NCBI GenBank assembly: GCA_000004985.1
Contig: GG738920.1
Reading direction: 5' to 3' (one strand)
Origin: Naegleria gruberi
Lineage: Eukaryota
Length of the DNA: 64,000 bases
Shown here: in pieces, positions 2,335 through 57,373 of the stretch
Layout of the letters: every line of letters begins with the position of its first letter
How positions within the stretch are numbered: position 1 is the stretch's first letter
The notes under the pieces: model-generated
Told to the model about the DNA's origin: nothing
The model's database searches: none
The model's input: only the letters and a program-made list of their open reading frames with translations
Made by a program: the position numbers and the translations under genes

Positions 2335-4104
2335 TGACTTCTTTTAGTCAATTAAGACAATTAAGGATATAACAATAGAAAAAGTTGACAATCTCAAAAT
2401 AAACTTTATTATCATGTAGTATATCTCAAATAAAGTGGACTGTATTCAAATTATATACTTTTATTTCAAGAAATGCATTCAGTAGATAGTACTTGGTGAT
2501 CTGTCAATGTGGCTAGAAATCTGAAAGGTCCAGAACCATATAAATAGAATCCTGAATCGAATACTCTTGATGCGTAGAACAATCTGAGAAAGTATCATAC
2601 TCATGACTCAATTCCTCTTGATCATTGTTGTATTTTTCATTCATGCGTAGATAAAAATAACGTACATTCAAAAATACTCTCAAAAATTCTACGCATCAAT
2701 ATGAATGACAACCAAATTGATTGAATATAAGTCCGTCCGCAAAGTGACGCAAACTAACGGAATATCGAAATCGTTACTACTTTCGAATAGCTTGAAAACA
2801 ACACATTTACACCACAACTCGATAACTAGATAAGAACTATATACTTTTTTTAAAACTTTACTAAAAAAACCAACAAAATACCCAAACGGCGCTTAATAAC
2901 CCTATATCAGATCATAAAGACCATGGAGCCACAGAAGAAACAAATCAAAACAACACGTTTCCAAACCCTTCAACCCAACCATCATAACTTGATATATATA
3001 AATATTTAACAATTTCACATCAGCCGTATATTGTGCCCCATTACCATCACCATCTTTTGACATCATTTGTGATATATATTGTTAATGTATTTAAGGAGAA
3101 AAGCTTAATAAATAGGGGTTGACATGGGATCCAAACCCTAAGGAAATATAAGGAAAGTTACCACTCTCAAAATAAATGATAATATCGTGTTCTACATCTC
3201 AAATAAGGTGGACTTTCATCAAATTATATGTTTTCATTTCAAGAAATGTATCCAGTAGATAGTACATGGTGATTTGTCAGGGTGGATTGATGGAAATCTG
3301 AAGGGTCCAGAAACAACTCCATTTTCACTGAAATTGATATCATGATATGTAGACACTCTAATTAGCATATAATATCAATTTCATGAATATTGGCTCAGTA
3401 GATATTGAGTTGTCAACTCTATCACTATACTATAAAACTTTGACATAAATTCAAAGATTATGCTCTAAATCACTTATTTTATATGAAACTAGTCTAGAAT
3501 TGATAACACAAATTCTGTACACCATTTATATACATCTATACAAGTTTAGAAACAATTCATGATACTTTCATTCAGTCAATCAGTAAATGTTCAATGTCAA
3601 TAGTGATTATATCCAATTGTACACACTGTCTCAATGAAAGTATATCCAAACATCATGTAACTTTACCAGATACATTTAGTCACACTGATATACATCTGGT
3701 ATCAATTTTAGTCTGTTAGAATTGAATTCAATATGATAATAATAACAATCTGTCAAATTGTCACATTTCAACATATAGAATGAATACCATCTCAGTCAAT
3801 TTACAAAATATCATACTAGTATCAAAAATGAATACACTTCCCTTGATGAGGAGAACAATCTGAGAAAGTTTTATATTCATGGCTCAATATCTTCAAGTCA
3901 ACTAAGGAACATCTAAGGTAATCAAAAGGGAAGAATCTTAATTCCAAAATTAAATTTTACCATCATGTCAAAATCATTGAATAATGCATTAATTATACAA
4001 GAATAATATATTCAATTGTTATATTCATGTCAGTAATCAGTGATGGTGACACTCNNNNNNNNNNNNNNNNNNNNNNNNNNNNNNNNNNNNNNNNNNNNNN
4101 NNNN

Positions 4105-4468
4105 ACCCAAACCCAAACCCAAACCCAAACCCAACCCAAACCCAAACCCAAACCCAAACCCAAACCCAAACCCAAACCCAACCCAAACCCAAACCCAACC
4201 CCAAACCCAAACCCAAACCCAACCAAAACCAAACCCAAACCCAAACCCAAACCCAAACCCAAACCCAAACCCAAACCCAAACCCAAACCCAAACCCAAAC
4301 CCAAACCCAAACCCAAACCCAAACCCAAACCCAAACCCAAACCCAAACCCAAACCCAAACCCAAACCCAAACCCAAACCCAACCCAACCCCAACCCCAAA
4401 CCCAAACCCAAACCCAAACCCAAACCCAAACCCAAACCCAAACCCAAACCCAAACCCAACCCAAACCC
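4105..4468 (+). repeat. Second telomere-type (CCCAAA)n array of about 364 bp, with some CCCAA/CCCCAA variants
   Basis: Seen directly. It is preceded by a 50-N gap (4055-4104) and followed by the same ~650-bp sequence as array 1. Confidence 0.95.
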
Positions 4469-5247
4469 TGACTTCTTTTAGTCAATTAAGACAATTAAGG
4501 ATATAACAATAGAAAAAGTTGACAATCTCAAAATAAACTTTATTATCATGTAGTATATCTCAAATAAAGTGGACTGTATTCAAATTATATACTTTTATTT
4601 CAAGAAATGCATTCAGTAGATAGTACTTGGTGATCTGTCAATGTGGCTAGAAATCTGAAAGGTCCAGAACCATATAAATAGAATCCTGAATCGAATACTC
4701 TTGATGCGTAGAACAATCTGAGAAAGTATCATACTCATGACTCAATTCCTCTTGATCATTGTTGTATTTTTCATTCATGCGTAGATAAAAATAACGTACA
4801 TTCAAAAATACTCTCAAAAATTCTACGCATCAATATGAATGACAACCAAATTGATTGAATATAAGTCCGTCCGCAAAGTGACGCAAACTAACGGAATATC
4901 GAAATCGTTACTACTTTCGAATAGCTTGAAAACAACACATTTACACCACAACTCGATAACTAGATAAGAACTATATACTTTTTTTAAAACTTTACTAAAA
5001 AAACCAACAAAATACCCAAACGGCGCTTAATAACCCTATATCAGATCATAAAGACCATGGAGCCACAGAAGAAACAAATCAAAACAACACGTTTCCAAAC
5101 CCAACCTTCAAACCCTAGCCCAAAATTATAAACTTATTCAAATATCATTAAATTTTATATCATTCGATTGGAAATGATGAGTAGAACAACGTAGTATATT
5201 TAGTTTTTCAATTTATAAAATATTAACTTTGTAAATAATGTCAGATT

Positions 5248-7300
5248 NNNNNNNNNNNNNNNNNNNNNNNNNNNNNNNNNNNNNNNNNNNNNNNNNNNNN
5301 NNNNNNNNNNNNNNNNNNNNNNNNNNNNNNNNNNNNNNNNNNNNNNNNNNNNNNNNNNNNNNNNNNNNNNNNNNNNNNNNNNNNNNNNNNNNNNNNNNNN
5401 NNNNNNNNNNNNNNNNNNNNNNNNNNNNNNNNNNNNNNNNNNNNNNNNNNNNNNNNNNNNNNNNNNNNNNNNNNNNNNNNNNNNNNNNNNNNNNNNNNNN
5501 NNNNNNNNNNNNNNNNNNNNNNNNNNNNNNNNNNNNNNNNNNNNNNNNNNNNNNNNNNNNNNNNNNNNNNNNNNNNNNNNNNNNNNNNNNNNNNNNNNNN
5601 NNNNNNNNNNNNNNNNNNNNNNNNNNNNNNNNNNNNNNNNNNNNNNNNNNNNNNNNNNNNNNNNNNNNNNNNNNNNNNNNNNNNNNNNNNNNNNNNNNNN
5701 NNNNNNNNNNNNNNNNNNNNNNNNNNNNNNNNNNNNNNNNNNNNNNNNNNNNNNNNNNNNNNNNNNNNNNNNNNNNNNNNNNNNNNNNNNNNNNNNNNNN
5801 NNNNNNNNNNNNNNNNNNNNNNNNNNNNNNNNNNNNNNNNNNNNNNNNNNNNNNNNNNNNNNNNNNNNNNNNNNNNNNNNNNNNNNNNNNNNNNNNNNNN
5901 NNNNNNNNNNNNNNNNNNNNNNNNNNNNNNNNNNNNNNNNNNNNNNNNNNNNNNNNNNNNNNNNNNNNNNNNNNNNNNNNNNNNNNNNNNNNNNNNNNNN
6001 NNNNNNNNNNNNNNNNNNNNNNNNNNNNNNNNNNNNNNNNNNNNNNNNNNNNNNNNNNNNNNNNNNNNNNNNNNNNNNNNNNNNNNNNNNNNNNNNNNNN
6101 NNNNNNNNNNNNNNNNNNNNNNNNNNNNNNNNNNNNNNNNNNNNNNNNNNNNNNNNNNNNNNNNNNNNNNNNNNNNNNNNNNNNNNNNNNNNNNNNNNNN
6201 NNNNNNNNNNNNNNNNNNNNNNNNNNNNNNNNNNNNNNNNNNNNNNNNNNNNNNNNNNNNNNNNNNNNNNNNNNNNNNNNNNNNNNNNNNNNNNNNNNNN
6301 NNNNNNNNNNNNNNNNNNNNNNNNNNNNNNNNNNNNNNNNNNNNNNNNNNNNNNNNNNNNNNNNNNNNNNNNNNNNNNNNNNNNNNNNNNNNNNNNNNNN
6401 NNNNNNNNNNNNNNNNNNNNNNNNNNNNNNNNNNNNNNNNNNNNNNNNNNNNNNNNNNNNNNNNNNNNNNNNNNNNNNNNNNNNNNNNNNNNNNNNNNNN
6501 NNNNNNNNNNNNNNNNNNNNNNNNNNNNNNNNNNNNNNNNNNNNNNNNNNNNNNNNNNNNNNNNNNNNNNNNNNNNNNNNNNNNNNNNNNNNNNNNNNNN
6601 NNNNNNNNNNNNNNNNNNNNNNNNNNNNNNNNNNNNNNNNNNNNNNNNNNNNNNNNNNNNNNNNNNNNNNNNNNNNNNNNNNNNNNNNNNNNNNNNNNNN
6701 NNNNNNNNNNNNNNNNNNNNNNNNNNNNNNNNNNNNNNNNNNNNNNNNNNNNNNNNNNNNNNNNNNNNNNNNNNNNNNNNNNNNNNNNNNNNNNNNNNNN
6801 NNNNNNNNNNNNNNNNNNNNNNNNNNNNNNNNNNNNNNNNNNNNNNNNNNNNNNNNNNNNNNNNNNNNNNNNNNNNNNNNNNNNNNNNNNNNNNNNNNNN
6901 NNNNNNNNNNNNNNNNNNNNNNNNNNNNNNNNNNNNNNNNNNNNNNNNNNNNNNNNNNNNNNNNNNNNNNNNNNNNNNNNNNNNNNNNNNNNNNNNNNNN
7001 NNNNNNNNNNNNNNNNNNNNNNNNNNNNNNNNNNNNNNNNNNNNNNNNNNNNNNNNNNNNNNNNNNNNNNNNNNNNNNNNNNNNNNNNNNNNNNNNNNNN
7101 NNNNNNNNNNNNNNNNNNNNNNNNNNNNNNNNNNNNNNNNNNNNNNNNNNNNNNNNNNNNNNNNNNNNNNNNNNNNNNNNNNNNNNNNNNNNNNNNNNNN
7201 NNNNNNNNNNNNNNNNNNNNNNNNNNNNNNNNNNNNNNNNNNNNNNNNNNNNNNNNNNNNNNNNNNNNNNNNNNNNNNNNNNNNNNNNNNNNNNNNNNNN
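5248..7300. other. Assembly gap of 2053 N inside the repeat block. There are also 50-N gaps at 2087-2136 and 4055-4104
   Basis: Runs of n. The left gap edge ends '...gtcagatt', which continues as 'gtcagattaaaaattat...' in the copy at 7662. The right edge starts 'acgtcccaaacattt', the same 15-mer that precedes the gap at 2087. Confidence 0.95.
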
Positions 7301-10300
7301 ACGTCCCAAACATTTGACTTCTCAAAGTCCATATTTCAAAAGTTAGTACTGACCTGACCTTTATATATCTATCAATACAAGAAATGAAAACATCAAATTT
7401 ACATTATTAATAGATGATAAGAATTATAATCAATGATATAAATCTTCACTAAGTAATATATTAAATAACCCAAATAAATCAACTCTGAATCCTAACCAAA
7501 CCCTTTGAACCTAAAATTGAAATACCAGACCCAATGTTTCAAAGTTCAAACCCTAGCCCAAATTATTGAATATTATATCATTCGATTGTAAATGATGAGT
7601 AGAACAATATATTATATTTAGTTTTTCAATTTATAAAATATTAACTTTGTAAATAATGTCAGATTAAAAATTATAAAATGAAACCATATGAAGAATGATA
7701 ATTTCAAAATCCTTTAATGAGATTATATAGTATATATCTTCACTAACAACATTCATAATCACTCTCATATGAAATTTCTAAACTTCATGTTGGTAGGTAT
7801 AAAAGTATCAAGTGAAAAGGGAAGATGTGAGGTAAAAGAGGTCAACAATAACTTTTGAGTTTCTCATCAAAACATATTAAATCCTAATATGAAAATGTTC
7901 CATTTGATTAGTAAACATCGAATATCAAATTTATTTTCACTTTCATATTTAAAGATTTCTTCCCTCAATCACACATGGTCAACTATGATGAAAAGGATGA
8001 AATCTTGAAAAAAGACCACTATTGAAACTTTACCAACATCATGCAGATGATCTATAATGTTGTAGATTTCAATTTCATATCATAAGAATCAGAAATGGTA
8101 CCATAGGAAAGTAAATGTTGATTTTACAAAGTTGACTGAAAGGAAAGACAAGTCAGATCAGTCTATCACAAACATCACTTCAATCAACAAAATATATATG
8201 AAAATGCTCCATTCAATCCGTAGAGATAGAATATCACGTTTATTTTAACTTTCATATTCATGATTTCATCCCTTTCATACCAACTAGTCAACTATGGACA
8301 TGAATGAAAATCTGGAAAATGACCACTCTATGAAACATTACCATCATGTTCAACATCTCAAATACTGTATATGATTCAAATTTCAGACATTTTGGAGAAT
8401 ATTCTATCTTTCAGTAAGGTAAAGGGTGAAATTTCAAGGTTGTCTTGGAAGATCAGGAGGAAATCTTGAATATAGAAAACCACGCCCTCAATCAACAAAA
8501 TATATCAATCGATTGGAAATCAATAGTACATCTCGAAAACATCATTTATTTTATGATTTGAAATCTCTCCTTTACCTCTTTTGGTCAATTAAGACAATTA
8601 AGGATGATACTATAGGAAAAGTTACCAATCTCAAAATAAATGATAATATCGTGTTCCACATCTCAAATAAAGTGGACTTTCATCAAATTATATAATTTCA
8701 TTTCAAGAAATGCATCCGTTAGATAGTACATGGTGATATTTCAAGGGAATGGATGGAAATCTGAAGGATATAGAAACAACTCCATTTGCACTGAAATTGA
8801 TACCATGATATGTAGACACTCTAATTAGCATATAATATCAATTTCATGAGTATTGGCTCAGTAGATATTGAGTTGTCAACTCTATCATTTTACTATAGAA
8901 CTTTGACATAAAATCAAAGATTATGCTCCAACTCACTTATTTTATATGCAATTAGTCTAGAACTGATAACACACATTCTATACACCATTTATATACATCT
9001 ATACAAGTTTAGAAACAATTCATGATACTTTCATTCAGTCAATCAGTAAATGTTCAATGTCAACACTTAATATATCTTAGTGAACACTCTATCTCAATGT
9101 AAGTACATCCAATCATCCTGTAACTTTACAAATTACGTTTAATCACACTATTATACATCTGGTATCAATTTCACAGTGTTAGAATTGAATTCAATATGAT
9201 AATAATAACAATCTTTCAAAATGTCACAATTCAATATATAGAATATACTCCATCTCAGTCAATTTACAATATATTGTACAAGTATCAAGTATGAATACAC
9301 TCCTCTAGATGAGGAGAACAATCCGAGAAAGTTTCATATTCATGGCTCAGAAAACCCTGATTAAAGACAAAAATGAGTAAAATGACCGAGAATCGATCGC
9401 ACGTCCATTAGTGAACATTGCCATTATACAACCGCTGAGCTAACAGCGCTATAGGTTTTATATCTAAAAATATCTATACAAACAAGAATATGTCGCATGA
9501 CAAATAAGAAGAACATTACTACCACTGCAAATAACAACAAGAATTAAATTATAATTTATTAATAATATTAATTTATTAATAATATTGAAGGGAGAAGTTG
9601 CTCCCTTCCAAATGATGGAAGGGAAGATCCAACTTGATGACCAAGAGGTGATACATCCACCAATCCAATCCAATTACATTATTAAAGCTATCCTAAATTT
9701 CCAATTAATTTTGCAACTTGGTGGAAGTGAGTGCCAAAGGCACCACACCTCCACCATTATAATAACTTCCAAATAAATATTATTCCAATTCCGAAACATC
9801 ATCTTCCAAATAATTCCAATCAATATATATTTTTAAAATTATTATGAAACAACTCCTGATGATATGATGATGATATGATACGATGATGATACGATGAGAT
9901 GATGAGATGATTGAATGAGGAAGAGAGAGGAGACATTACAACATTTTTTTTGTATGTTACTTTTCCAACCGACAATTTAAGAGCATCCGCACTCTCACCT
10001 CCATACAACCAAGACAAGAATGAATCAACTCTTTAATTACCAGCAAGGATTTCCAACAAGAATAATTAAATATTTAATCGGTGATAATTCAATAATTACT
10101 TAGTGAAATCCAAAAGTTGAAACACCAATCGATAGCAAATCATCTCTAGTATGACATATATTTTTTATTGATCAATTTCTGATCATTCTTTTACCTTTCC
10201 CTAGGAATAGTAAAATCGCAATATATTGAGGGAGGAATTGCTGATTATCTCAATAATTATATAACAAACTATACACAATCTATAGCCCACTGGATAGCTG

Positions 10301-26190: not shown

Positions 26191-26262
26191 TCGGGTGTGG
26201 TATAGTGGTAGCATTCCAGACTGTCACTCTGGCGACCCGGGTTCAATTCCCGGCACTCGAGA
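26191..26262 (+). tRNA. tRNA-Asp (anticodon GUC)
   Basis: Cloverleaf: acceptor TCGGGTG/CACTCGA, anticodon stem CCAGA/TCTGG with loop CTGTCAC, T-arm CCGGG-TTCAATT-CCCGG. Confidence 0.85.
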
Positions 26263-33525: not shown

Positions 33526-34017
33526 ATGCCAGCCAAGACTAAGAAATCCACTGAAAGCAAGGATAAGACCAAGGAAACCAAGAAGGACAAGGTTACCAAG
33601 AAGACCACAAAGGCTTCCGGTGATGGTGAAGAAGGTGAAAAGGACGACAAGAAGAAGAAGTCTAGACATGAATCCTACTCTTCATATATCTACAAAGTCT
33701 TGAGACAAGTCCACTCTGATATTGGTATTTCCACCAAGGCTATGTCTATCATGAACTCCTTCATTCAAGATATCTTTGAAAGAATTGCCAATGAAGCTGC
33801 TCAATTGTGTAGAGTCAATGGTACTAAGACTTTGTCTTCTCGTGAAATCCAAACTGCTGTCAGATTGATCCTCCCAGGTGAATTGGCTAAGCACGCTGTT
33901 TCTGAAGGTACCAAGGCTGTTACCAAGTATCAAACTTCATCAGGAAAGACTGCTCCAAAGAAGAGAGAGAAGAAGGAAAAGAAGGAAAAGTCTGAAAAGA
34001 CTACTGAAAGCAAGTAA
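33526..34017 (+). CDS. H2B: Histone H2B, 163 aa, with a lysine-rich C-terminal extension
   Basis: '[30 protein letters not shown]...[32 protein letters not shown]' is canonical H2B. Single exon. TATA-like 'tatttaaaa' lies about 70 bp upstream. Confidence 0.9.
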
Positions 34018-34357
34018 TTCGATTACTAACATGACACAATTACCTTTTTGTAAATATCATTTACTGGGATGTGTACTGCATCCAACCTAGATTTCACAAC
34101 TTTTGTAACTCATTAAAACAATAACTTAAATTATTTCAATTTGTGTGAATTGTTTTAATATATTTCCGAATCAAAATTGCTAGATTTAGGATGGTGGTAT
34201 CAGTATGGACTTGCACCTTGATGAATTGCTCACTAGTGGGTTTTACACTAGATCAGTGATAATCAAACTTGGATGGCTTGCTCAGGTAGACACTCGATAA
34301 GTTGATTAGTCAGATAATCTATTTCAATCATAATCAGACAAGTCTTGGTGGTAAAAG

Positions 34358-35182
34358 TTAAATATTTAATGATGAAAGAACTCTCTTGAAGAGAATGTTA
34401 TTCTCCAAATGAACATGAATGTACAAGTTTTCTTCCAACTCGGTGAGCAATCTCTTTGTATTCTCCACAGTTTTGCAATAGTCAGGCAATTCCTTTCTCA
34501 TAGAAGCCAACAATTTAATCAACTTGCCAGCTTCATCATGATCCTCCATCAATGATGCTAGTTTACTCTTCAAGAATGGATTACTTTTATCTTGTTGTTC
34601 ATCATATTGAATGATTAGTGGAAAGACATCCTTCTCCTCCTTTACCAAGTGTACAAGCAATTCAGTGGCAAGACTTTGGAAGATCTTGTACATCTTCTCC
34701 ATCAATAGAATAGAAGGATGAGTTGAGGCTACATCTTGCTCATTCTCTCCTGATGATTGTCTGGCTTGTTGAATTAACTTTCCCATATGAACAGTGTAAA
34801 TCTTGAGTAAGAGTTGGGAAAGAACAGGAATATTCTCCCTGAGGTAATCATGATGATGATGAATAATGTGTTGTACAAGTTGGGAAGCTTTCCAATCAAC
34901 CATTCCTTGTTGAAGAGAGGTAGAGGTGTTGTTATTGTCTTCTTGTTGTTGGCAACATTGAATTTCCATCTCTTGTACTTGTTTAATGATTGAAAGACAT
35001 TCCTCTTCAATGTTACTAACAGAAGATGATTCTTGAACAACACTAATCAAACTTCTCTGACCACCACAACAATAGTCAATACCAAGCTTGTTCAATATGA
35101 GAGGTCCTCCTTTTGGATATTTGGCAATCAAATCACCGAGAAGAATTGATGAAGAAAGGTTGTTTTCAGTTTGTTGTTGCAT
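34358..35182 (-). CDS. Repair-of-iron-centres protein (RIC/YtfE/ScdA family): ScdA_N domain plus a hemerythrin-like di-iron domain, 274 aa
   Basis: N-terminal 'LGDLIAKYPKGGPLILNKLGIDYCCGGQRSL' is the ScdA_N (DUF542) motif. It is followed by paired H/E motifs ('HHHHDYLRE', 'HLVKEEKDVFPL', 'MEDHDEAG', 'HVHLENNILF'). Single exon with host-like codon usage. Confidence 0.75.
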   Translation of the reverse strand: MQQQTENNLSSSILLGDLIAKYPKGGPLILNKLGIDYCCGGQRSLISVVQESSSVSNIEEECLSIIKQVQEMEIQCCQQQEDNNNTSTSLQQGMVDWKASQLVQHIIHHHHDYLRENIPVLSQLLLKIYTVHMGKLIQQARQSSGENEQDVASTHPSILLMEKMYKIFQSLATELLVHLVKEEKDVFPLIIQYDEQQDKSNPFLKSKLASLMEDHDEAGKLIKLLASMRKELPDYCKTVENTKRLLTELEENLYIHVHLENNILFKRVLSSLNI

Positions 35183-35574
35183 TGTCAGTATTGTTATTGT
35201 ATTTGTTTTCTAAATTGATAATAACTTCTAATGACCATACAACAGCCTTTAATACTATCCATGATGAGCCATTATTATTTGTGGGGTTTCTTCTTCATTC
35301 CTTATCTATTAACCCATTTGTCCTCCATGATAAAGCCACTGAAGATTATTGTTGGAGAATTTTTTGTTATTTTGAAAATTTTCTCTTCTTGATTTCTGGC
35401 GAAGATGTTCTCAAGTTGTAGCACCAACAAAACCAATTCAACAACAATTCAATTCAATATATAAATAACTAAATATCCACTTCACTCTACTTCTCATCAT
35501 CTTTAAATCTTTCATCAAAATAAAAGAAGCCAAACAAAAAATAAAAAATTGTAAAAAATTTGAAAATATAAAAA

Positions 35575-38500
35575 ATGTTAAAAAGGGTCGCCTCTGTTGG
35601 AAGCAAAAATAATAAACTTGTCCGTAGACATTTGTTGGACGGGCGACTCTATCAAACTGCCTTCTTCAACACAACAAAGCCAAGTCTTTCATTGAAAAAA
35701 ACACTGGGAGTTGATTCAAAATTACAAAAGGAAGCTGATGAAGTTTCTTCGGCAACTATCGCTGAAGAGCTTGATGATATACAAATGGAAGCTGATGCTA
35801 AGGATTTTGATACTGAAGTCTTGGAAGAAATTTACTCTGGAGAATTGTTCGACGCCTATAGCAGAATGTCCTTGTTAGTTAAAAGAGAAAAGAAGCAAGG
35901 AGATGTTCCTTATGCTGAAGAACCATCTCTTGCTCCAAACTTCTCTGACGAGTTTGCATTGGAAGATGCCGATGCTGATAATGATGCAGACTTCAATGAC
36001 GCAAATACATTGTTGGATGCTGAAGAAACTGTAAAGGAAACCGGAGAAGAAGAAGATTATGAAGATATAGACGACTATGAAGACGTTGAAGATATAAATC
36101 CACACCAACAAGCTATGGAAGATATGGCTCTCCTCCTTGAAAAGAATGACCTATTGGGTTTAACTGATGCAGATGTTGCTGAAATGACAGCAGTGGACCA
36201 AGAATTAGATACTTTTGATGTTTCTGAATTTGATATTCATGCTAAACTTGTAGATAGAGTTTCTACCATCTCACAAAAAGCACCAAAGCAAGTTATGAAT
36301 GCCACAGTCTCGGAAAACGCTAAGGATGTTTCCAATACTATTAGCGAAGTTGGTAAACTTGTTCAAGAAATGTCTCCAATGATTAGTGTTGCTATTGGTT
36401 CTCTTGATATGACTGATAATAATGCTGCTCAAGATCCTCAATTTGTTAACCAAGCAAACAAGATTAATGAATTGGCCAAGTACTTGATTTATACTACCTT
36501 GATGAGAGAAAATCCAAAGGAAATTTCACCAGAACTTGCCAACTCTGCCAAGAGATTTGGTATTGATATTAGTGCTCTTCAACAAGAAGCTGCTTCTGGT
36601 AAGCAAATTGCTATTCCTTCTATTTTACAACAAGAATCAAGCACTTCCTCTTCGGAAGAATTTTCTTCATCTGAAGAAGAAGAGGTTAGCAAGGATATTT
36701 TGAGTATTCCAATGATTGAAGAAATTCAAAAGGAAGCTGAATTGGAACAACAAGCTGAAGTTGCTAAGGCTCTTGCTATTGAACAAACCTTAGCTGTCAG
36801 AGAAGCTGATGAAGTTGTTGAAGAATCGGAAGAAGCTGAAGAAGAAGAGGGTATTGATCTTTTCGATGATGAGGAATATCCAGAAGAAGAAGATGAGGAT
36901 CATGCTAGAGAAAAGGAAGAAAAGGAAATTAAGGAAAGATACAACTCTCCAGATTTGAGCTTAATTTCTCAATTTAACTTGCAAATGGGTGATGCTAAAG
37001 TTGAAGATGTTGTTGAAGAAGAAAGAGGAAAGCAAAGACCAGACGCTACTGTCAAATTCCCTAACTTTAGAAACAAGCCACAATTCAACAATAGAGAAGC
37101 TATTCCAGATTATATTCACGAACAAGATATTACCATTTCTCAATATTGTAATGTCTTTGATGCTGCCAAACAATTCGGTATTGAAGTTGATGAAGATGCC
37201 ATGTTGCCAGAACTTGACAGTTTGACTCAAAGTGAAAAGGCTGATTTCATTGAAAGACAACTTGAAATTGCTACCATGCCATTCCAATCTGTTCAAGCTC
37301 AAAGAAAGGAAATTAAGGAAAGACAAGCTCAAGAAAAGGGAGAAATTTATCAAACTGAAGTTGATCAATTTATGGAACATTTGAATGATCCTATTATTCA
37401 ATCACTCACAATTGATGAAGATGAATTGTTGGAAGATGATTTAGAAATTCAAGCTCAATTGAAGGAAGAAAGTGAAGAAGTCTTTGAAGTTGATTCTTTC
37501 CTCGATGCTGTCATTCTCAAGCAAGATAATCCATACGAACCATTCATGCTTGCTACTCATCCACATCTCTTTGTTGAAGGTTCAACTCATTTGAGAGAAA
37601 CTGATGTTGGTAAGATTTTCATCATTTCCCCAGAACATCATAAGAAGTACTTTGGTGTTACTGGTACTGGTGGTGATTTGGATAAGTCATTCGAACAAAT
37701 CTTACAAAGAGGTTTGCTTGTCAGAGAACCAGTTTTGCCAATCGTTAACGAAATTCAAAGCTTGTCTAAAAATAAGAAGAAGTTGACTACTGATCCAGGA
37801 TACTTGCTTATGGGTATTCAAGGAAGTGGTAAATCTGCTTGTTTGGCCACCTGTGTTTTCAATGCTTACACTAATGGAGTTTTGGTTGTTCATATTCCAT
37901 CTGCTTATCACTGGACTCAAGGAATTCACTTTGTTGAACCATCACCTGTTTTGCAAGGATACTTTGATGCTCCACTCCCAACTAGAGACTTTTTGAAGGC
38001 ATTCATGACTGCCAACACTGAAATTTTGAAGGGAATGAAGTTGAGCAGAGAATATACTCTTCCATTAGAATCTGGTCAAAAGGTTCCAACGACGCTCTAC
38101 GAATTGTGTGACTATGCTCTCCTTTCTGATGGTAATATTTCTGTTGTTTTCAAGTTTGTTCTTGATGAACTCATCAATGATAAGACAACTCCAATGCTCT
38201 TTGCTATTGATGATTATAATTTCTTACACGACTATACATGTTATCAATATGGTAACCTTGACGATTTCACTACAACTGTTCCACAAAAGGTACATGCTAA
38301 GAATTATACATTGGTGAGAGCCTTGTCAAGAATAATTCAACAAAATGCTCCAAACAAGCTCATTGTTGCTGCTAACACAAATAAGAATAAGACACCAAAT
38401 AAGGTTTACCTCATGGAAGAAAACGTTTTGGACCCAGTTTATGTTTCATCTAGATACTCATACCCAGAACTTGAAAACATTGTAGAATATTACCAAAGCT

Positions 38501-38601
38501 CTGCATTTGTGTTCGGAAATAAGGAAAACTTTATGGAAGATTTACTTTTCATGTCAGGTGGTGTTCCACAAAGAGTTTTCAAGCACATGTCTGTGTTCTA
38601 A
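35575..38601 (+). CDS. DAP3/mitoribosomal mS29-like P-loop protein, 1008 aa, with an acidic N-terminal extension of about 600 aa
   Basis: The C-terminal third has 'LLMGIQGSGKSACLATCVFNAYTNGVLVVHIPSAYHWTQG', which resembles the DAP3 family P-loop region. 'MLKRVASVGSKNNKLVRR' is presequence-like. The middle is D/E-rich low complexity. Confidence 0.5.
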   Translation: MLKRVASVGSKNNKLVRRHLLDGRLYQTAFFNTTKPSLSLKKTLGVDSKLQKEADEVSSATIAEELDDIQMEADAKDFDTEVLEEIYSGELFDAYSRMSLLVKREKKQGDVPYAEEPSLAPNFSDEFALEDADADNDADFNDANTLLDAEETVKETGEEEDYEDIDDYEDVEDINPHQQAMEDMALLLEKNDLLGLTDADVAEMTAVDQELDTFDVSEFDIHAKLVDRVSTISQKAPKQVMNATVSENAKDVSNTISEVGKLVQEMSPMISVAIGSLDMTDNNAAQDPQFVNQANKINELAKYLIYTTLMRENPKEISPELANSAKRFGIDISALQQEAASGKQIAIPSILQQESSTSSSEEFSSSEEEEVSKDILSIPMIEEIQKEAELEQQAEVAKALAIEQTLAVREADEVVEESEEAEEEEGIDLFDDEEYPEEEDEDHAREKEEKEIKERYNSPDLSLISQFNLQMGDAKVEDVVEEERGKQRPDATVKFPNFRNKPQFNNREAIPDYIHEQDITISQYCNVFDAAKQFGIEVDEDAMLPELDSLTQSEKADFIERQLEIATMPFQSVQAQRKEIKERQAQEKGEIYQTEVDQFMEHLNDPIIQSLTIDEDELLEDDLEIQAQLKEESEEVFEVDSFLDAVILKQDNPYEPFMLATHPHLFVEGSTHLRETDVGKIFIISPEHHKKYFGVTGTGGDLDKSFEQILQRGLLVREPVLPIVNEIQSLSKNKKKLTTDPGYLLMGIQGSGKSACLATCVFNAYTNGVLVVHIPSAYHWTQGIHFVEPSPVLQGYFDAPLPTRDFLKAFMTANTEILKGMKLSREYTLPLESGQKVPTTLYELCDYALLSDGNISVVFKFVLDELINDKTTPMLFAIDDYNFLHDYTCYQYGNLDDFTTTVPQKVHAKNYTLVRALSRIIQQNAPNKLIVAANTNKNKTPNKVYLMEENVLDPVYVSSRYSYPELENIVEYYQSSAFVFGNKENFMEDLLFMSGGVPQRVFKHMSVF

Positions 38602-43227: not shown

Positions 43228-43420
43228 CAACTCTCGGGTTGAATTTCTATACTCTTTTGGATATTCATCTTGAATTTCCTTAAAATGCTCCTCGGAGTTA
43301 TATTGTAAGATAGAGATTTATAAATTTCCTTGCAAGAGCCAGTTGGTAAGCAAAAGGATTGTTCCACTTTGCTATCTGGGATATTTAATAAATGAGGAAT
43401 ATTTTCAAAGTGAATAAGAT

Positions 43421-43492
43421 TCCCGTGTAGTCCAATGGCTAGGATACCTGGCTTTCACCCAGGAGGTCCGGGTTCAATTCCCGGCATGGGAG
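43421..43492 (+). tRNA. tRNA-Glu (anticodon UUC)
   Basis: 'TCCCGTGTAGTCCAATGGCTAGGATACCTGGCTTTCACCCAGGAGGTCCGGGTTCAATTCCCGGCATGGGAG' folds as a canonical cloverleaf with T-loop GGTTCAATTCC. Confidence 0.9.
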
Positions 43493-43599
43493 AATCATTT
43501 TGTTCATCTGGTGTTTTAATTATTTTGACATGCCAATAATTACAATTATTATCACTCAAGAAAAACCTTGAATTGATGAACAGCTTATCGTTTTCTTAT

Positions 43600-55164: not shown

Positions 55165-55393
55165 TGTAAGATTGTCTGATGTCTTGATGAATAAACTTGG
55201 GGATTGTTCCCTTCTTCATTGTCAATCGAGTTTGTGAAATAATAATTGATAAATGACTTATCAGATAGGAGAATTAAACAATTGACTGCAATTATTTCAA
55301 GATCAGCTAAAAAAGTTAGAATACAATTGATTTTTTCCAAATCCTGTGTGAGTATCTATTTCCATTCAAAAAAGACGTGAAACCAAAATGATT

Positions 55394-55465
55394 CTCCCAT
55401 GCCGGGAATTGAACCCGGACCTCCTGGGTGAAAGCCAGGTATCCTAGCCATTGGACTACACGGGA
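55394..55465 (-). tRNA. tRNA-Glu (UUC), identical to the 43421-43492 copy, in inverted orientation
   Basis: Exact reverse complement of the + copy. About 35 bp of 5' flank is also conserved. Confidence 0.9.
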
Positions 55466-56334
55466 ATCTTATTCTCTTTAAAAATATTCCTCATCTATAA
55501 AATAGCATTGGTTGTAACGAAAAATTAATTATTCCAATCATTTAAGTTCTTTCTAGATCAGAAAGCATACAGTGTAGTAGTTCCTTACAAAAATCTAAAC
55601 CAAAACCATCTTGAAAAACAAGCTCTATACCTAGTCCAGAGTCTCAAGAAGAAATTGGACGAAAATTTATAAAGTTTTAAGAAAAGATAAAGTTGCAATA
55701 TTTCTGAGTTTTCTGGATATTCAAAAAGTGAAATATTCCGAATGTTAAATTGAAATACTTATTACCAGGTTAGCTAGCCATTCTTAAAATTCGTCATCAT
55801 ACATGCTCGGAATTTGACAAATACTCAATTTTGCTCTGATTGAGATTTCTTTGTGCAATGATTTTTCAATTAATTAAAAGAGTTAGGTGGCTCCTAATCT
55901 GACGGTTTGTGCAATGTCTGATTGAAACCAAATCAAAGTGAGCAATTAAGCTCAAACCCTGATCCCTACAAAAAATTGAGTTAATAGTAGATGCAACCCG
56001 TGAGCTGCTTTCAGCTATTAAACTGAAAAGAACAGATACTACACTCGATCAAAGCCAATTGGCCGAGAAAGATGGTTTTGAGAATTGCATAAGGAACAGA
56101 GTTTTTATTCTGTTGGTTGTGGAGCGAAGAATGGCAAAATGTTTGTGGTATTTTAATAAATTTTAATGCCTTGTTCGACTATTGATATTGAACATGTAGC
56201 GAATCTTAATAATCAATATTTATGATGGAGCAGTTCAATCAGAACTTGGAAAGAATGTGAGAAGCAAACTTGACCAACAATTAAGGGGGATTGATAAGTA
56301 AACGTGAACTAGTGAAAAAACAAATAAACAAAAA

Positions 56335-57299: not shown

Positions 57300-57373
57300 T
57301 ACCGACAATGGGGCTCGAACCCACGACCCCAGGATTAGAAGTCCTGTGCTCTATCCAACTGAGCTATGACGGC
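57300..57373 (-). tRNA. tRNA-Arg (UCU)
   Basis: Reverse complement 'GCCGTCATAGCTCAGTTGGATAGAGCACAGGACTTCTAATCCTGGGGTCGTGGGTTCGAGCCCCATTGTCGGTA'. The acceptor stem has one U-U mismatch. Confidence 0.75.

What the first reader, a model, noticed from the sequence alone, without database searches (positions are those of the whole stretch)
34358..35182. Bacterial-type RIC/YtfE (repair of iron centres) di-iron protein encoded as an intron-less gene
The ScdA_N 'GIDYCCGG' motif plus a four-helix hemerythrin-like H/E ligand set is a family that is overwhelmingly bacterial and only patchily reported in eukaryotes. Codon usage and AT content match neighbouring genes, so this is not contamination. It is more likely an old horizontal acquisition, potentially involved in nitrosative or oxidative stress repair of Fe-S proteins.
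Basis: partly seen in the sequence, partly recalled or inferred. Interest (0 to 1): 0.55.

Follow-up and report, generated by a model that had tools for sequence, protein, structure and literature searches.

The report
Bacterial-origin RIC di-iron gene in Naegleria
The amoeba Naegleria gruberi carries an intact, intron-less copy of a bacterial stress-protection gene (a "repair of iron centres" di-iron protein) that its ancestors took from bacteria long ago; this is a solid but fairly ordinary case of gene transfer into a microbial eukaryote.

Summary
Window 34358-35182 (-) is a 274-aa ORF, 100% identical to the uncharacterised Naegleria gruberi protein NAEGRDRAFT_53830. It has the RIC/YtfE/ScdA architecture: an ScdA_N domain with vicinal Cys38-Cys39 and a four-helix bundle keeping all six YtfE di-iron ligands. 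The AlphaFold model (pLDDT 89) matches only YtfE and ScdA structures.

The gene is native. Codon usage matches its neighbours, and DAP3-RIC-H2B order is conserved in N. fowleri and N. lovaniensis (dN/dS 0.09). Willaertia magna has an orthologue, and an environmental Naegleria-like copy has gained a 37-nt spliceosomal intron.

These five sequences form one clade (98-99.7% NJ bootstrap) with shared indels. Below it, every hit whose origin could be determined is bacterial, mostly Clostridia and Bacilli at 28-36% identity, apart from one unidentified eukaryote. This fits an old bacteria-to-eukaryote transfer before the Naegleria/Willaertia split. The donor is unresolved.

That unidentified eukaryote (Percolomonas-like neighbour gene) carries a much more Clostridia-like RIC.

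Function is inferred: a cytosolic di-iron protein managing nitrosative or oxidative stress, as nitrite-to-NO reductase and/or iron donor.

Eukaryotic RICs are already known (Trichomonas, Cryptococcus), so this is a new member of a known kind. No searched paper reports it in Naegleria.

The parts
34358..35182 (-). Complete intron-less CDS (274 codons plus stop) of the RIC/YtfE/ScdA-family di-iron protein, identical to N. gruberi NAEGRDRAFT_53830 / XP_002669995.1 / UniProt D2W0W5
   Evidence: ORF; 100% identity to P0001; accessions; TIGR03652 E=2e-39
35027..35146 (-). ScdA_N domain (residues ~13-52). It starts almost at the N-terminus, leaving no room for a targeting presequence.
   Evidence: Pfam PF04405 at residues 15-52; aligns from ScdA residue 6; short helices 15-21, 25-32 and 45-52 in the AF2 model
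35066..35071 (-). Vicinal cysteines Cys38-Cys39 (= YtfE Cys30/Cys31) within the invariant D-x-C-C-G-G motif
   Evidence: Invariant columns D36, C38, C39 and G41 in the 59-sequence alignment; role in electron delivery to the di-iron site described in PMC9052748
34889..35026 (-). Inter-domain linker (residues 53-98) with a Q/N/E-rich low-complexity expansion that is longest in N. gruberi
   Evidence: Alignments; AF2 helix 58-83, with pLDDT falling to 66 around residues 81-90
34370..34888 (-). Hemerythrin-like four-helix bundle (residues 99-271). Di-iron ligands are H111, H178, E182, H215, H256 and E260. Conserved H132 (= YtfE H105), E174 (= E125) and C236 (= C184) are also present. D214 replaces YtfE E159.
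   Evidence: Invariant columns, mapped on the YtfE motif H84(x44)H129(x3)E133(x26)H160(x43)H204(x3)E208 from PMC8117158; AF2 helices 99-144, 156-196, 202-231 and 237-271; Foldseek top 12 hits all YtfE or S. aureus RIC
34703..34768 (-). Clade-specific insertion (residues 139-160) in the helix 1 / helix 2 hairpin. It is present in all Naegleria, Willaertia and environmental copies and absent from every bacterial RIC aligned.
   Evidence: Alignments; lower pLDDT of 74-83 across residues 131-160
35183..35574 (.). 392-bp divergent intergenic region shared with the DAP3-domain gene. It presumably holds both promoters; this is inferred, not tested.
   Evidence: Coordinates; sequence; the same head-to-head arrangement in N. 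fowleri and N. lovaniensis
35575..38601 (+). Neighbour gene: 1008-aa protein with a C-terminal DAP3 (mitochondrial ribosomal protein) domain. It serves as a syntenic anchor.
   Evidence: Pfam PF10236 E=3e-34; orthologues of 1019 and 1009 aa lie next to RIC in N. fowleri and N. lovaniensis
33526..34017 (+). Neighbour gene: H2B-type core histone (163 aa). It serves as a syntenic anchor.
   Evidence: Pfam PF00125 E=1.3e-19; a histone gene lies on the same side in N. fowleri and N. lovaniensis

Best explanation
This is a functional, nuclear, intron-less Naegleria gruberi gene for a Repair-of-Iron-Centres (RIC; YtfE/ScdA) di-iron protein. An ancestor of Naegleria and Willaertia (vahlkampfiid Heterolobosea) acquired it from a bacterium, most likely a Clostridia-like member of the Bacillota. 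It has since been fully domesticated. Its codon usage is native, its chromosomal position is conserved within Naegleria, it carries clade-specific indels, and one lineage has gained a spliceosomal intron.

How it works is inferred from the family. A four-helix bundle holds an oxo-bridged di-iron site ligated by H111, H178, H215 and H256 and bridged by E182 and E260. The N-terminal ScdA_N domain carries Cys38-Cys39, which relay electrons to the metal site. With no presequence, the protein should act in the cytosol during nitrosative or oxidative stress.

Two activities are described for bacterial RICs, and the sequence keeps what both need. One is high-affinity reduction of nitrite to NO, which NO-consuming enzymes then remove; N. 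gruberi expresses a hybrid-cluster protein, Hcp/priS. The other is donation of iron to rebuild damaged Fe-S clusters. I lean slightly to the nitrite/NO-handling role. The bacterial iron-donor partners (IscS/IscU, SufBCD) are mitochondrial or absent in the Naegleria cytosol.

Shown here: homology, ligand conservation, fold, native genomic residence, purifying selection, a clade restricted to heteroloboseans, and bacterial nearest relatives. Inferred: iron binding, activity, localisation and donor lineage.
For: Family and fold:
- TIGR03652 E=2e-39; Pfam Hemerythrin and ScdA_N; PDB ScdA and YtfE at E=1e-15 and 3e-14.
- All six YtfE ligands, the CC pair, and the H105, E125 and C184 equivalents are invariant (motif from PMC8117158).
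- AF2 pLDDT 89.2, pTM 0.81. The only significant Foldseek PDB hits are YtfE and S. aureus RIC, TM 0.82-0.87 on the target.

Native gene:
- 100% identical to the N. gruberi protein on a 218,836-bp scaffold.
- RSCU correlation 0.83, GC3 0.345, both within the neighbours' range.
- Cullin-DAP3-RIC-(B9)-H2B synteny in N. fowleri and N. lovaniensis.
- dN/dS 0.09 between N. fowleri and N. lovaniensis.
- A 37-nt GT..AG intron in the environmental copy, L087:6991-7027. Removing it restores the frame and the conserved 'MYR-LF-MKLST'.

Transfer:
- In the exhaustive HMMER scan of 1.84 billion representatives, only Naegleria (508 bits), Willaertia (225 bits) and the two halves of the environmental gene (168 and 156 bits) score above all other hits (at most 151 bits).
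- The heterolobosean profile gives 389-455 bits for the four members, then a drop to 168 bits. Every named hit below that is bacterial, nearly all Bacillota.
- The GTDB genome scan finds Clostridiaceae, Paenibacillaceae, Bacillaceae, Acidobacteriota and Bacteroidota at 24-35% identity.
- The closest bacterial sequences are demonstrably bacterial. L004 has a Shine-Dalgarno sequence and a terminator. L006 reads nrdD-nrdG-RIC-flavodiiron protein, L008 has sucCD next to RIC, and L170 reads Crp-RIC-flavodiiron protein.
- NJ trees give heterolobosean monophyly 98% and 99.7%. When the sister group contains named taxa, it almost always includes Clostridia.
- Shared indels: a 15-22-aa insertion (longer in Willaertia) and a 3-aa deletion before Cys236.

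Mechanism background: PMC9052748, PMC12412097, PMC8117158, PMC12720416, PMC9268430. Expressed N. gruberi Hcp/priS: PMC1484493.
Against: - The Naegleria/Willaertia proteins score 136-151 bits on TIGR03652, below the 204.7 equivalog cutoff. N. gruberi also just misses the ScdA_N gathering score. The clade is divergent, so a shift in function cannot be excluded.
- D214 replaces YtfE E159, which H-bonds ligand H129. An E159L mutant loses one iron, although E159N behaves like wild type (PMC8117158).
- The bacterial sister group has essentially no bootstrap support. The trees are only NJ with a Kimura correction.
- Other eukaryotic RICs (T. vaginalis RIC1/RIC2, C. neoformans CNA2870) could not be included in the tree.
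- A second eukaryotic RIC (P0134 on L168) falls among the same Clostridia. The number and depth of transfers is therefore uncertain.
- No expression, metal-content, activity or localisation data were available.
Confidence: 0.8

Rival explanations
1. Single deeper origin. RIC entered an early heterolobosean (or wider discoban) ancestor once. The Clostridia-like RIC on the unidentified eukaryotic contig L168 is a slowly evolving orthologue, and the Naegleria/Willaertia branch simply evolved fast and picked up indels.
For: P0134 is the best-scoring non-member in the exhaustive Naegleria-profile scan (150.7 bits). Its contig is eukaryotic: a RabGAP-TBC gene and an FA_hydroxylase gene each have two 33-40-nt GT..AG introns. 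The spliced FA_hydroxylase has Percolomonas cosmopolitus, a heterolobosean, as its best named relative at 51% identity. P0134 shares the 'CKTV' motif after the conserved Cys. It falls in the sister clade of the heteroloboseans in 25% of bootstraps.
Against: P0134 is 49-51% identical to Clostridiaceae and Alkaliphilus RICs but only about 39-42% identical to Naegleria and Willaertia. It lacks both clade-specific indels. It carries no more heterolobosean signature residues (4 of 23) than the bacterial L008. It is the exclusive sister of the heterolobosean clade in only 1.3% of bootstraps, and its own sister is Clostridia in 62%. The identity of the L168 organism rests on one neighbouring gene.
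Confidence: 0.15
2. Vertical inheritance. RIC was present in an early eukaryote, or came with the mitochondrial endosymbiont, and was lost almost everywhere, so no lateral transfer into heteroloboseans is needed.
For: RICs do occur in a few other eukaryotes: T. vaginalis RIC1/RIC2 and C. neoformans CNA2870 (PMC9268430). I could not place these in the tree.
Against: Neither top-120 list contains another named eukaryote or eukprot-sourced protein. All named hits are bacterial. The nearest relatives are Bacillota, not alphaproteobacteria. T. vaginalis RIC2 is reported as 49% identical to E. coli YtfE, whereas the Naegleria protein is 28% identical to YtfE, which points to different sources. This scenario would require very many independent losses.
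Confidence: 0.04
3. Neofunctionalised or degenerate RIC. Like T. vaginalis RIC2, which is isolated without iron and binds DNA, the divergent Naegleria protein no longer works as a di-iron stress enzyme.
For: Sub-threshold equivalog scores of 136-151 bits against a 204.7 cutoff, while the other eukaryotic copy P0134 scores 224.5. There are clade-specific insertions in the bundle hairpin and the linker. E159 is replaced by Asp.
Against: All six metal ligands, the CC pair, and the H105, E125 and C184 equivalents are invariant across five heterolobosean sequences, despite 40-54% overall identity to N. gruberi. dN/dS is 0.09. The YtfE-like fold is predicted with confidence. Asp is a conservative replacement for E159, and E159N is reported as wild-type-like.
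Confidence: 0.1
4. Bacterial contamination or assembly artefact in the N. gruberi scaffold.
For: The family is overwhelmingly bacterial. The scaffold does contain N gaps and a telomere-like repeat about 30 kb away.
Against: The ORF is flanked within 340-392 bp by a histone H2B gene and a DAP3 gene. Composition and codon usage are native. Orthologues lie at the same position in two independently assembled Naegleria genomes, and Willaertia has one too. One relative carries a spliceosomal intron.
Confidence: 0.01

Closest known systems
Escherichia coli YtfE (RIC; PDB 5FNN, 7BHA)
   Same: Same two-domain architecture. Same ligand motif: H84/H129/E133/H160/H204/E208 correspond to H111/H178/E182/H215/H256/E260. 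The vicinal Cys pair, H105, E125 and C184 equivalents are also present. It is the best structural match to the AF2 model, with TM 0.82-0.86 on the target.
   Different: Only 28% identity. The Naegleria protein has a longer inter-domain linker, a 22-aa insertion in the helix 1/2 hairpin and a 3-aa deletion before Cys236. D214 replaces E159. It is a monocistronic eukaryotic gene, so the NsrR control described for bacterial ytfE cannot apply.
Staphylococcus aureus ScdA / RIC (PDB 9R7J, 9J47)
   Same: Best PDB sequence hit (E=1.2e-15). It belongs to the Bacillota, as do the nearest relatives of the Naegleria protein. Same ligands (H87, H132, E136, H167, H211, E215) and the same CC pair. Reported both as a nitrite reductase (PMC12412097) and as an iron donor to the SUF scaffold (PMC12720416).
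   Different: No SUF system is expected as a partner in the Naegleria cytosol (established knowledge, not tested here). The Naegleria-specific indels are absent from ScdA.
Clostridia RICs encoded next to flavodiiron NO/O2 reductases (e.g. L006, L008, L170, P0004)
   Same: These are the closest bacterial sequences: 33-36% identity by BLAST, up to 40% over trimmed columns. Some share the 'CKTV' motif. They are the most frequent named sister group in bootstraps.
   Different: They are operon-embedded (nrdDG-RIC-FDP; Crp-RIC-FDP-DUF1858-hemerythrin), 230-240 aa long and lack the insertions. They score above the TIGR03652 cutoff (P0004 233.5 bits).
Trichomonas vaginalis RIC1 and RIC2 (Nobre et al. 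2016, cited in PMC9268430)
   Same: These are the precedent for RIC genes in a microbial eukaryote. RIC1 binds two Fe, repairs Fe-S clusters and is induced by nitrosative stress. By my recollection of the abstract, which is not held in the library, RIC1 is cytoplasmic.
   Different: They come from a different eukaryotic supergroup. RIC2 is reported as 49% identical to YtfE and iron-free. They do not appear among the top hits of the Naegleria or heterolobosean profile searches.
Classical O2-binding hemerythrins (including the Naegleria hemerythrin studied in iron-limitation work, PMC7326272)
   Same: Four-helix bundle with a di-iron site; Pfam PF01814 matches.
   Different: In RICs two glutamates bridge the irons, whereas hemerythrins use one Glu and one Asp (PMC8117158). 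RICs also have an extra ScdA_N domain. The protein here has the RIC pattern.

Membership tests
RIC / YtfE / ScdA (TIGR03652; PF04405 + PF01814) | Two-domain architecture: N-terminal ScdA_N domain followed by a hemerythrin-like four-helix bundle | tested here: met
   Pfam hits at residues 15-52 and 105-267. AF2 model with short N-terminal helices plus four long helices. Foldseek top 12 hits are all YtfE or S. aureus RIC.
RIC / YtfE / ScdA (TIGR03652; PF04405 + PF01814) | Di-iron ligand motif H(x44)H(x3)E(x26)H(x43)H(x3)E: four His plus two bridging Glu | tested here: met
   H111, H178, E182, H215, H256 and E260 are invariant in the 11- and 59-sequence alignments. Motif from PMC8117158. The H111-H178 spacing is longer (x66) because of the clade-specific insertion.
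RIC / YtfE / ScdA (TIGR03652; PF04405 + PF01814) | Vicinal cysteine pair in the N-terminal domain (YtfE C30/C31) | tested here: met
   C38-C39 lie within the invariant D-x-C-C-G-G motif.
RIC / YtfE / ScdA (TIGR03652; PF04405 + PF01814) | Conserved second-shell and channel residues (YtfE H105, E125, E159, C184) | tested here: inconclusive
   H132, E174 and C236 are conserved. E159 is Asp214 in N. gruberi, N. fowleri and N. lovaniensis, and Glu in the environmental copy and Willaertia. E159N is reported as wild-type-like and E159L loses one Fe.
RIC / YtfE / ScdA (TIGR03652; PF04405 + PF01814) | Score above the curated HMM thresholds (operational, equivalog level) | tested here: not met
   TIGR03652 135.6 bits against a 204.7 cutoff, although E=2e-39. 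PF04405 30.9 against 32.5. PF01814 46.6 against 25.3, which passes. Orthologues score 148-151 bits, with full model coverage in N. lovaniensis and N. fowleri. I therefore file it as a divergent homologue within the RIC family, not as a guaranteed functional equivalog.
RIC / YtfE / ScdA (TIGR03652; PF04405 + PF01814) | Binds two Fe per monomer and shows nitrite-reductase and/or Fe-S repair activity; induced by NO or H2O2 | not testable with these tools
   This needs recombinant protein, spectroscopy, enzyme assays and expression data.
Classical O2-carrying hemerythrin | Single-domain bundle whose bridging carboxylates are one Glu and one Asp | tested here: not met
   The protein has the RIC pattern of two bridging Glu, plus an extra ScdA_N domain. 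The distinction is stated in PMC8117158.
Bacteria-to-eukaryote laterally transferred gene | Resides in genuine eukaryotic chromosomal context and is inherited within the recipient lineage | tested here: met
   Flanked by H2B and DAP3 genes. Syntenic orthologues in N. fowleri and N. lovaniensis. Orthologue in Willaertia. Native codon usage. Intron gain in one relative.
Bacteria-to-eukaryote laterally transferred gene | The recipient clade is nested within donor-domain diversity, and no closer eukaryotic homologues exist | tested here: inconclusive
   All named non-heterolobosean hits are bacterial. The clade has 98-99.7% bootstrap, but its bacterial sister is unsupported and the trees are only NJ. 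One other eukaryotic RIC (P0134/L168) sits among the Clostridia. Trichomonas and Cryptococcus RICs were not available for the tree.

The most novel reading that the evidence does not exclude
RIC entered Heterolobosea from Clostridia-like anaerobes, possibly more than once given the far more Clostridia-like copy on L168. In the Naegleria/Willaertia lineage it then evolved rapidly, gaining a helix-hairpin insertion, a longer linker and sub-equivalog divergence. The result would be a eukaryote-specific cytosolic nitrite/NO-handling module working with other laterally acquired anaerobe enzymes (hybrid-cluster protein, cytosolic [FeFe]-hydrogenase). This would be a piece of bacterial nitrosative-stress physiology rebuilt in an amoeba, and it could matter for how N. 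fowleri withstands host-derived NO.
Probability: 0.2. Interest if true: 0.5.

Novelty: new member of a known kind. Interest (0 to 1): 0.35.

Why it matters
RIC proteins help bacterial pathogens, and Trichomonas, survive nitric oxide and peroxide from host immunity. The brain-eating amoeba N. fowleri has a conserved orthologue under purifying selection. This gives a concrete, testable candidate for its tolerance of nitrosative and oxidative stress, and the protein has no human counterpart.

In evolutionary terms this is a clean, datable bacteria-to-eukaryote transfer. It is fixed before the Naegleria/Willaertia split and shows full amelioration, clade-specific indels and one intron gain. It adds to the set of anaerobe-type genes (Hcp, hydrogenase) in Naegleria.

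It does not change what is known about the family. Eukaryotic RICs were already known, and the gene is already in public databases as an uncharacterised or 'hemerythrin-like' protein.

Tried and rejected
- **Literature.** Searches for Naegleria with 'repair of iron', 'iron-sulfur cluster repair' or ScdA found nothing relevant. Neither did searches for the accessions NAEGRDRAFT_53830, FDP41_008121, XP_002669995, D2W0W5 and C9374_007766. Overton 2008 and Nobre 2016 are not held, so I could not read their lists of eukaryotic RICs.
- **P0004 as a possible protist sequence.** At 36% identity it is the closest non-Naegleria hit of the first search. I rejected a protist origin because its contig has an AAGGAG Shine-Dalgarno sequence and a hairpin plus T-run terminator.
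- **Misbinned eukaryotic contigs.** I checked whether the MAG contigs nearest to the eukaryotic RICs (L006, L008) might be eukaryotic. They are not: both carry tight bacterial operons.
- **Signature residues.** This test asked whether P0134 shares derived states with the Naegleria clade. It was uninformative: P0134 has 4 of 23, the same as the bacterial L008.
- **Synteny outside the gruberi/fowleri/lovaniensis group.** There is none in Willaertia (ERG4/ERG24, TauE, adaptin) or in the environmental contig L087 (glutamate dehydrogenase, 2OG-Fe(II) oxygenase).
- **The apparent 9%-GC block at window 6-8 kb.** It is an assembly gap of Ns, not real sequence.
- **Contamination and classical hemerythrin.** I rejected both readings, as set out in the rival explanations and the membership test.
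Full report
**1. Observation**

Window 34358-35182 on the minus strand is a single ATG-to-stop ORF of 274 codons. It contains 'LGIDYCCGGQ' at residues 33-42.

- Pfam finds Hemerythrin (PF01814, E=6e-12, residues 105-267) and ScdA_N (PF04405, 30.9 bits, just under the 32.5 gathering score, residues 15-52).
- NCBIfam finds TIGR03652 'iron-sulfur cluster repair di-iron protein' at E=2e-39. The score is 135.6 bits, below the 204.7 equivalog cutoff.
- The best solved relatives are S. aureus ScdA (9r7j, E=1.2e-15) and E. coli YtfE (5fnn, E=3e-14).

**2. Organism and annotation status**

The protein is 100% identical to 'predicted protein [Naegleria gruberi]' (NAEGRDRAFT_53830, XP_002669995.1, UniProt D2W0W5) on a 218,836-bp scaffold. 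Orthologues are annotated only as hypothetical or 'hemerythrin-like domain-containing' proteins. They occur in N. lovaniensis (C9374_007766, 52% identity) and N. fowleri (FDP41_008121, 51%).

No paper in the searchable library links Naegleria with RIC, ScdA, YtfE-type repair proteins or these accessions. The 2022 review of the family names only Trichomonas vaginalis and Cryptococcus neoformans as eukaryotic carriers (PMC9268430).

**3. Family membership**

I aligned the protein with E. coli YtfE (fetched from NC_000913) and with bacterial RICs.

- All six crystallographic ligands are invariant. The YtfE motif is H84(x44)H129(x3)E133(x26)H160(x43)H204(x3)E208 (PMC8117158). The Naegleria equivalents are H111, H178, E182, H215, H256 and E260.
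- Also invariant are the vicinal cysteines C38/C39 (= C30/C31) and H132 (= H105), E174 (= E125, iron-exit channel) and C236 (= C184).
- The one notable change is D214 in place of E159.
- An AlphaFold2 model built on a 59-sequence alignment is confident (pLDDT 89.2, pTM 0.81). It shows the small N-terminal domain followed by four long helices.
- Foldseek against the PDB returns only YtfE and S. aureus RIC chains as significant matches (E down to 7e-8, TM 0.82-0.87 on the target).

The protein is therefore a true RIC homologue with an intact metal site. The sub-threshold equivalog scores mark it as a divergent subfamily. N. gruberi scores 135.6 bits, N. lovaniensis 148.2, N. fowleri 151 and Willaertia 149.4. 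A bacterial neighbour scores 233.5.

**4. A native eukaryotic gene**

- GC (0.361), GC3 (0.345) and the RSCU correlation with the other 20 large ORFs of the window (0.83) all lie within the neighbours' range of 0.68-0.96.
- N. fowleri and N. lovaniensis have the same Cullin / DAP3 (-) / RIC (+) / H2B (-) arrangement, with single-exon RIC models. The only difference is a B9-C2 gene between RIC and H2B, which is missing from the N. gruberi window.
- dN/dS between N. fowleri and N. lovaniensis is 0.09, with dS near saturation at 1.49.

**5. Wider distribution**

I ran an exhaustive HMMER scan of 1.84 billion cluster representatives with the three-Naegleria profile. It gave 2800 hits at E<=1e-3.

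- Above all other hits (at most 151 bits) it found only the Naegleria representative (508 bits), P0131 (225 bits) and two fragments, P0132 (168 bits) and P0133 (156 bits).
- P0131 is Willaertia magna ABK040_004522. It is a single-exon gene in a different genomic neighbourhood.
- P0132 and P0133 lie 40 bp apart on one metagenome contig, L087. Removing a 37-nt GT..AG intron (L087:6991-7027) joins them in frame and restores the conserved 'MYR-LF-MKLST'. The result is a 242-aa RIC, 63% identical (full-length alignment) to the N. fowleri and N. lovaniensis proteins. A gene of bacterial ancestry has thus gained a spliceosomal intron in one lineage.
- All five heterolobosean proteins share a 15-22-aa insertion (longer in Willaertia) in the helix 1/2 hairpin. 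They also share a 3-aa deletion before the conserved Cys. Both features are absent from every bacterial sequence aligned.

**6. Origin**

- A profile of the five sequences gives 389-455 bits for the four members in the database, then a drop to 168 bits. Every named hit below that is bacterial. Nearly all are Bacillota: Chengkuizengella, Clostridiaceae, Alicyclobacillus, Anoxybacillus, Cellulosilyticum and Orenia, among others.
- The GTDB scan gives Clostridiaceae, Paenibacillaceae, Bacillaceae, Acidobacteriota and Bacteroidota at 24-35% identity.
- The nearest bacterial sequences sit in clearly bacterial contexts. L004 has a Shine-Dalgarno sequence and a terminator. L006 reads nrdD-nrdG-RIC-flavodiiron protein and L008 has sucCD upstream of RIC. 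L170 reads Crp-RIC-flavodiiron protein-DUF1858-hemerythrin.
- NJ trees (205 sequences, 228 columns) give 98% (200 replicates) and 99.7% (300 replicates) support for heterolobosean monophyly, and 100% for Naegleria plus the environmental copy.
- The bacterial sister group is unresolved. When it contains named taxa it almost always includes Clostridia. Bacilli alone occur in 1.3% of replicates, and Acidobacteriota never form the sister on their own.

Together these results indicate a bacterium-to-eukaryote transfer before the Naegleria/Willaertia divergence, probably from a Clostridia-like donor. I could not add the Trichomonas or Cryptococcus RICs to the tree. The review reports T. vaginalis RIC2 as 49% identical to YtfE, whereas the Naegleria protein is 28% identical. 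That argues indirectly for separate origins.

**7. A second eukaryotic RIC**

P0134 is the best-scoring hit outside the heterolobosean clade. It lies on a Logan contig (L168, GC 32.7%) that is eukaryotic.

- A RabGAP-TBC gene and an FA_hydroxylase gene on the contig each have two 33-40-nt GT..AG introns.
- The spliced FA_hydroxylase has Percolomonas cosmopolitus, a heterolobosean, as its best named relative at 51% identity.
- P0134 is about 50% identical to Clostridiaceae RICs but only about 39-42% identical to Naegleria and Willaertia. It lacks their indels and passes the equivalog cutoff at 224.5 bits.

Either a related protist acquired RIC independently from similar bacteria, or there was one deeper acquisition followed by acceleration in the Naegleria/Willaertia branch. 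The data do not decide between these.

**8. Mechanism (inferred)**

The ScdA_N domain starts at about residue 13, and the N-terminus (MQQQTENNLSSS...) has no basic presequence. The protein is therefore probably cytosolic.

Two activities are documented for bacterial RICs:

- iron donation for Fe-S cluster repair or assembly, through IscS/IscU or SufBCD (PMC8117158, PMC12720416);
- high-affinity reduction of nitrite to NO, with the Cys pair delivering electrons, working with the NO consumers Hcp and Hmp (PMC9052748 for YtfE, PMC12412097 for ScdA).

The Naegleria protein retains the elements both activities need. I lean modestly to the nitrite/NO-management role, for two reasons. The ISC machinery is mitochondrial in eukaryotes, which is established knowledge and was not tested here. 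And N. gruberi expresses a hybrid-cluster protein (priS/Hcp; PMC1484493). Neither activity was testable here.

**9. Verdict**

The finding is a new, divergent member of a known kind, since eukaryotic RICs are already known. It is already in the databases but is uncharacterised and, in the literature I could search, unreported. It is a clean example of an old, fully domesticated bacterial gene in heterolobosean amoebae, and it has some relevance to stress tolerance in N. fowleri. Interest is moderate to low.

Noticed in passing
L168:1-5956 (Logan SRR32607924 contig); RIC at 4001-4708: An unidentified AT-rich eukaryote (GC 32.7%, introns of 33-40 nt, standard stop codons) carries an intron-less RIC (P0134). 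It is about 50% identical to Clostridiaceae RICs and passes the TIGR03652 cutoff. A neighbouring sterol-oxidase-like gene is closest to Percolomonas cosmopolitus (51%). This may be a second, less diverged bacterial-to-protist RIC acquisition.
   Followed up: partly
L087:6991-7027 (JGI metagenome 3300002220 contig MLSBCLC_10144160): A 37-nt GT..AG spliceosomal intron interrupts the RIC gene of an environmental Naegleria-like organism. The prokaryotic gene caller therefore split the gene into two 'proteins' (P0132, P0133). The flanking genes (glutamate dehydrogenase, 2OG-Fe(II) oxygenase) show no synteny with the N. gruberi locus.
   Followed up: yes
window 34018-34357; L001:9033-9572; L003:8903-9442: A 179-aa B9-C2 domain gene (ciliary transition-zone family) lies between RIC and H2B in N. 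fowleri and N. lovaniensis. It is absent from the 340-bp spacer in N. gruberi and from the whole window (tblastn best E=2.1). This is a local loss or relocation in N. gruberi, or a gain in the other lineage.
   Followed up: partly
window 4055-4468 and ~5249-7340: A 61.7-copy (ACCCAA)n array, which reads (TTGGGT)n on the other strand and is telomere-like, lies at 4105-4468 directly after a run of N. A second N gap of about 2.1 kb follows at ~5249-7340. That gap produced the apparent 9% GC and the spurious ORFs in many frames. This is possibly a chromosome end scaffolded internally, or an interstitial telomere-like tract.
   Followed up: partly
window 35575-38601 (+): The DAP3 (mitochondrial ribosomal protein S29) homologue is unusually long at 1008 aa. 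The DAP3 domain occupies only residues 714-1003, behind an acidic, low-complexity N-terminal extension of about 700 aa. The length is conserved in N. fowleri (1019 aa) and N. lovaniensis (1009 aa).
   Followed up: no
L006:242-4876; L170:3083-7454; L008:2983-5298: In the closest bacterial relatives, RIC sits beside flavodiiron proteins (metallo-beta-lactamase plus flavodoxin domains), Crp-family regulators, DUF1858 and stand-alone hemerythrins. These are typical NO/O2-stress operons of anaerobes. None of these partner genes accompanied RIC into the Naegleria locus.
   Followed up: partly
window 26191-26261, 43420-43493, 55393-55466, 57300-57373: Four tRNA genes are scattered among the protein-coding genes: Asp-GTC, two Glu-TTC on opposite strands, and Arg-TCT.
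   Followed up: no
window 33526-34017 (+): The H2B-type histone is long (163 aa), with Lys/Glu-rich tails at both ends, including a C-terminal [14 protein letters not shown] tail. Willaertia has a 510+ aa histone-domain gene model 6.7 kb from its RIC (L086:15603-16927).
   Followed up: no
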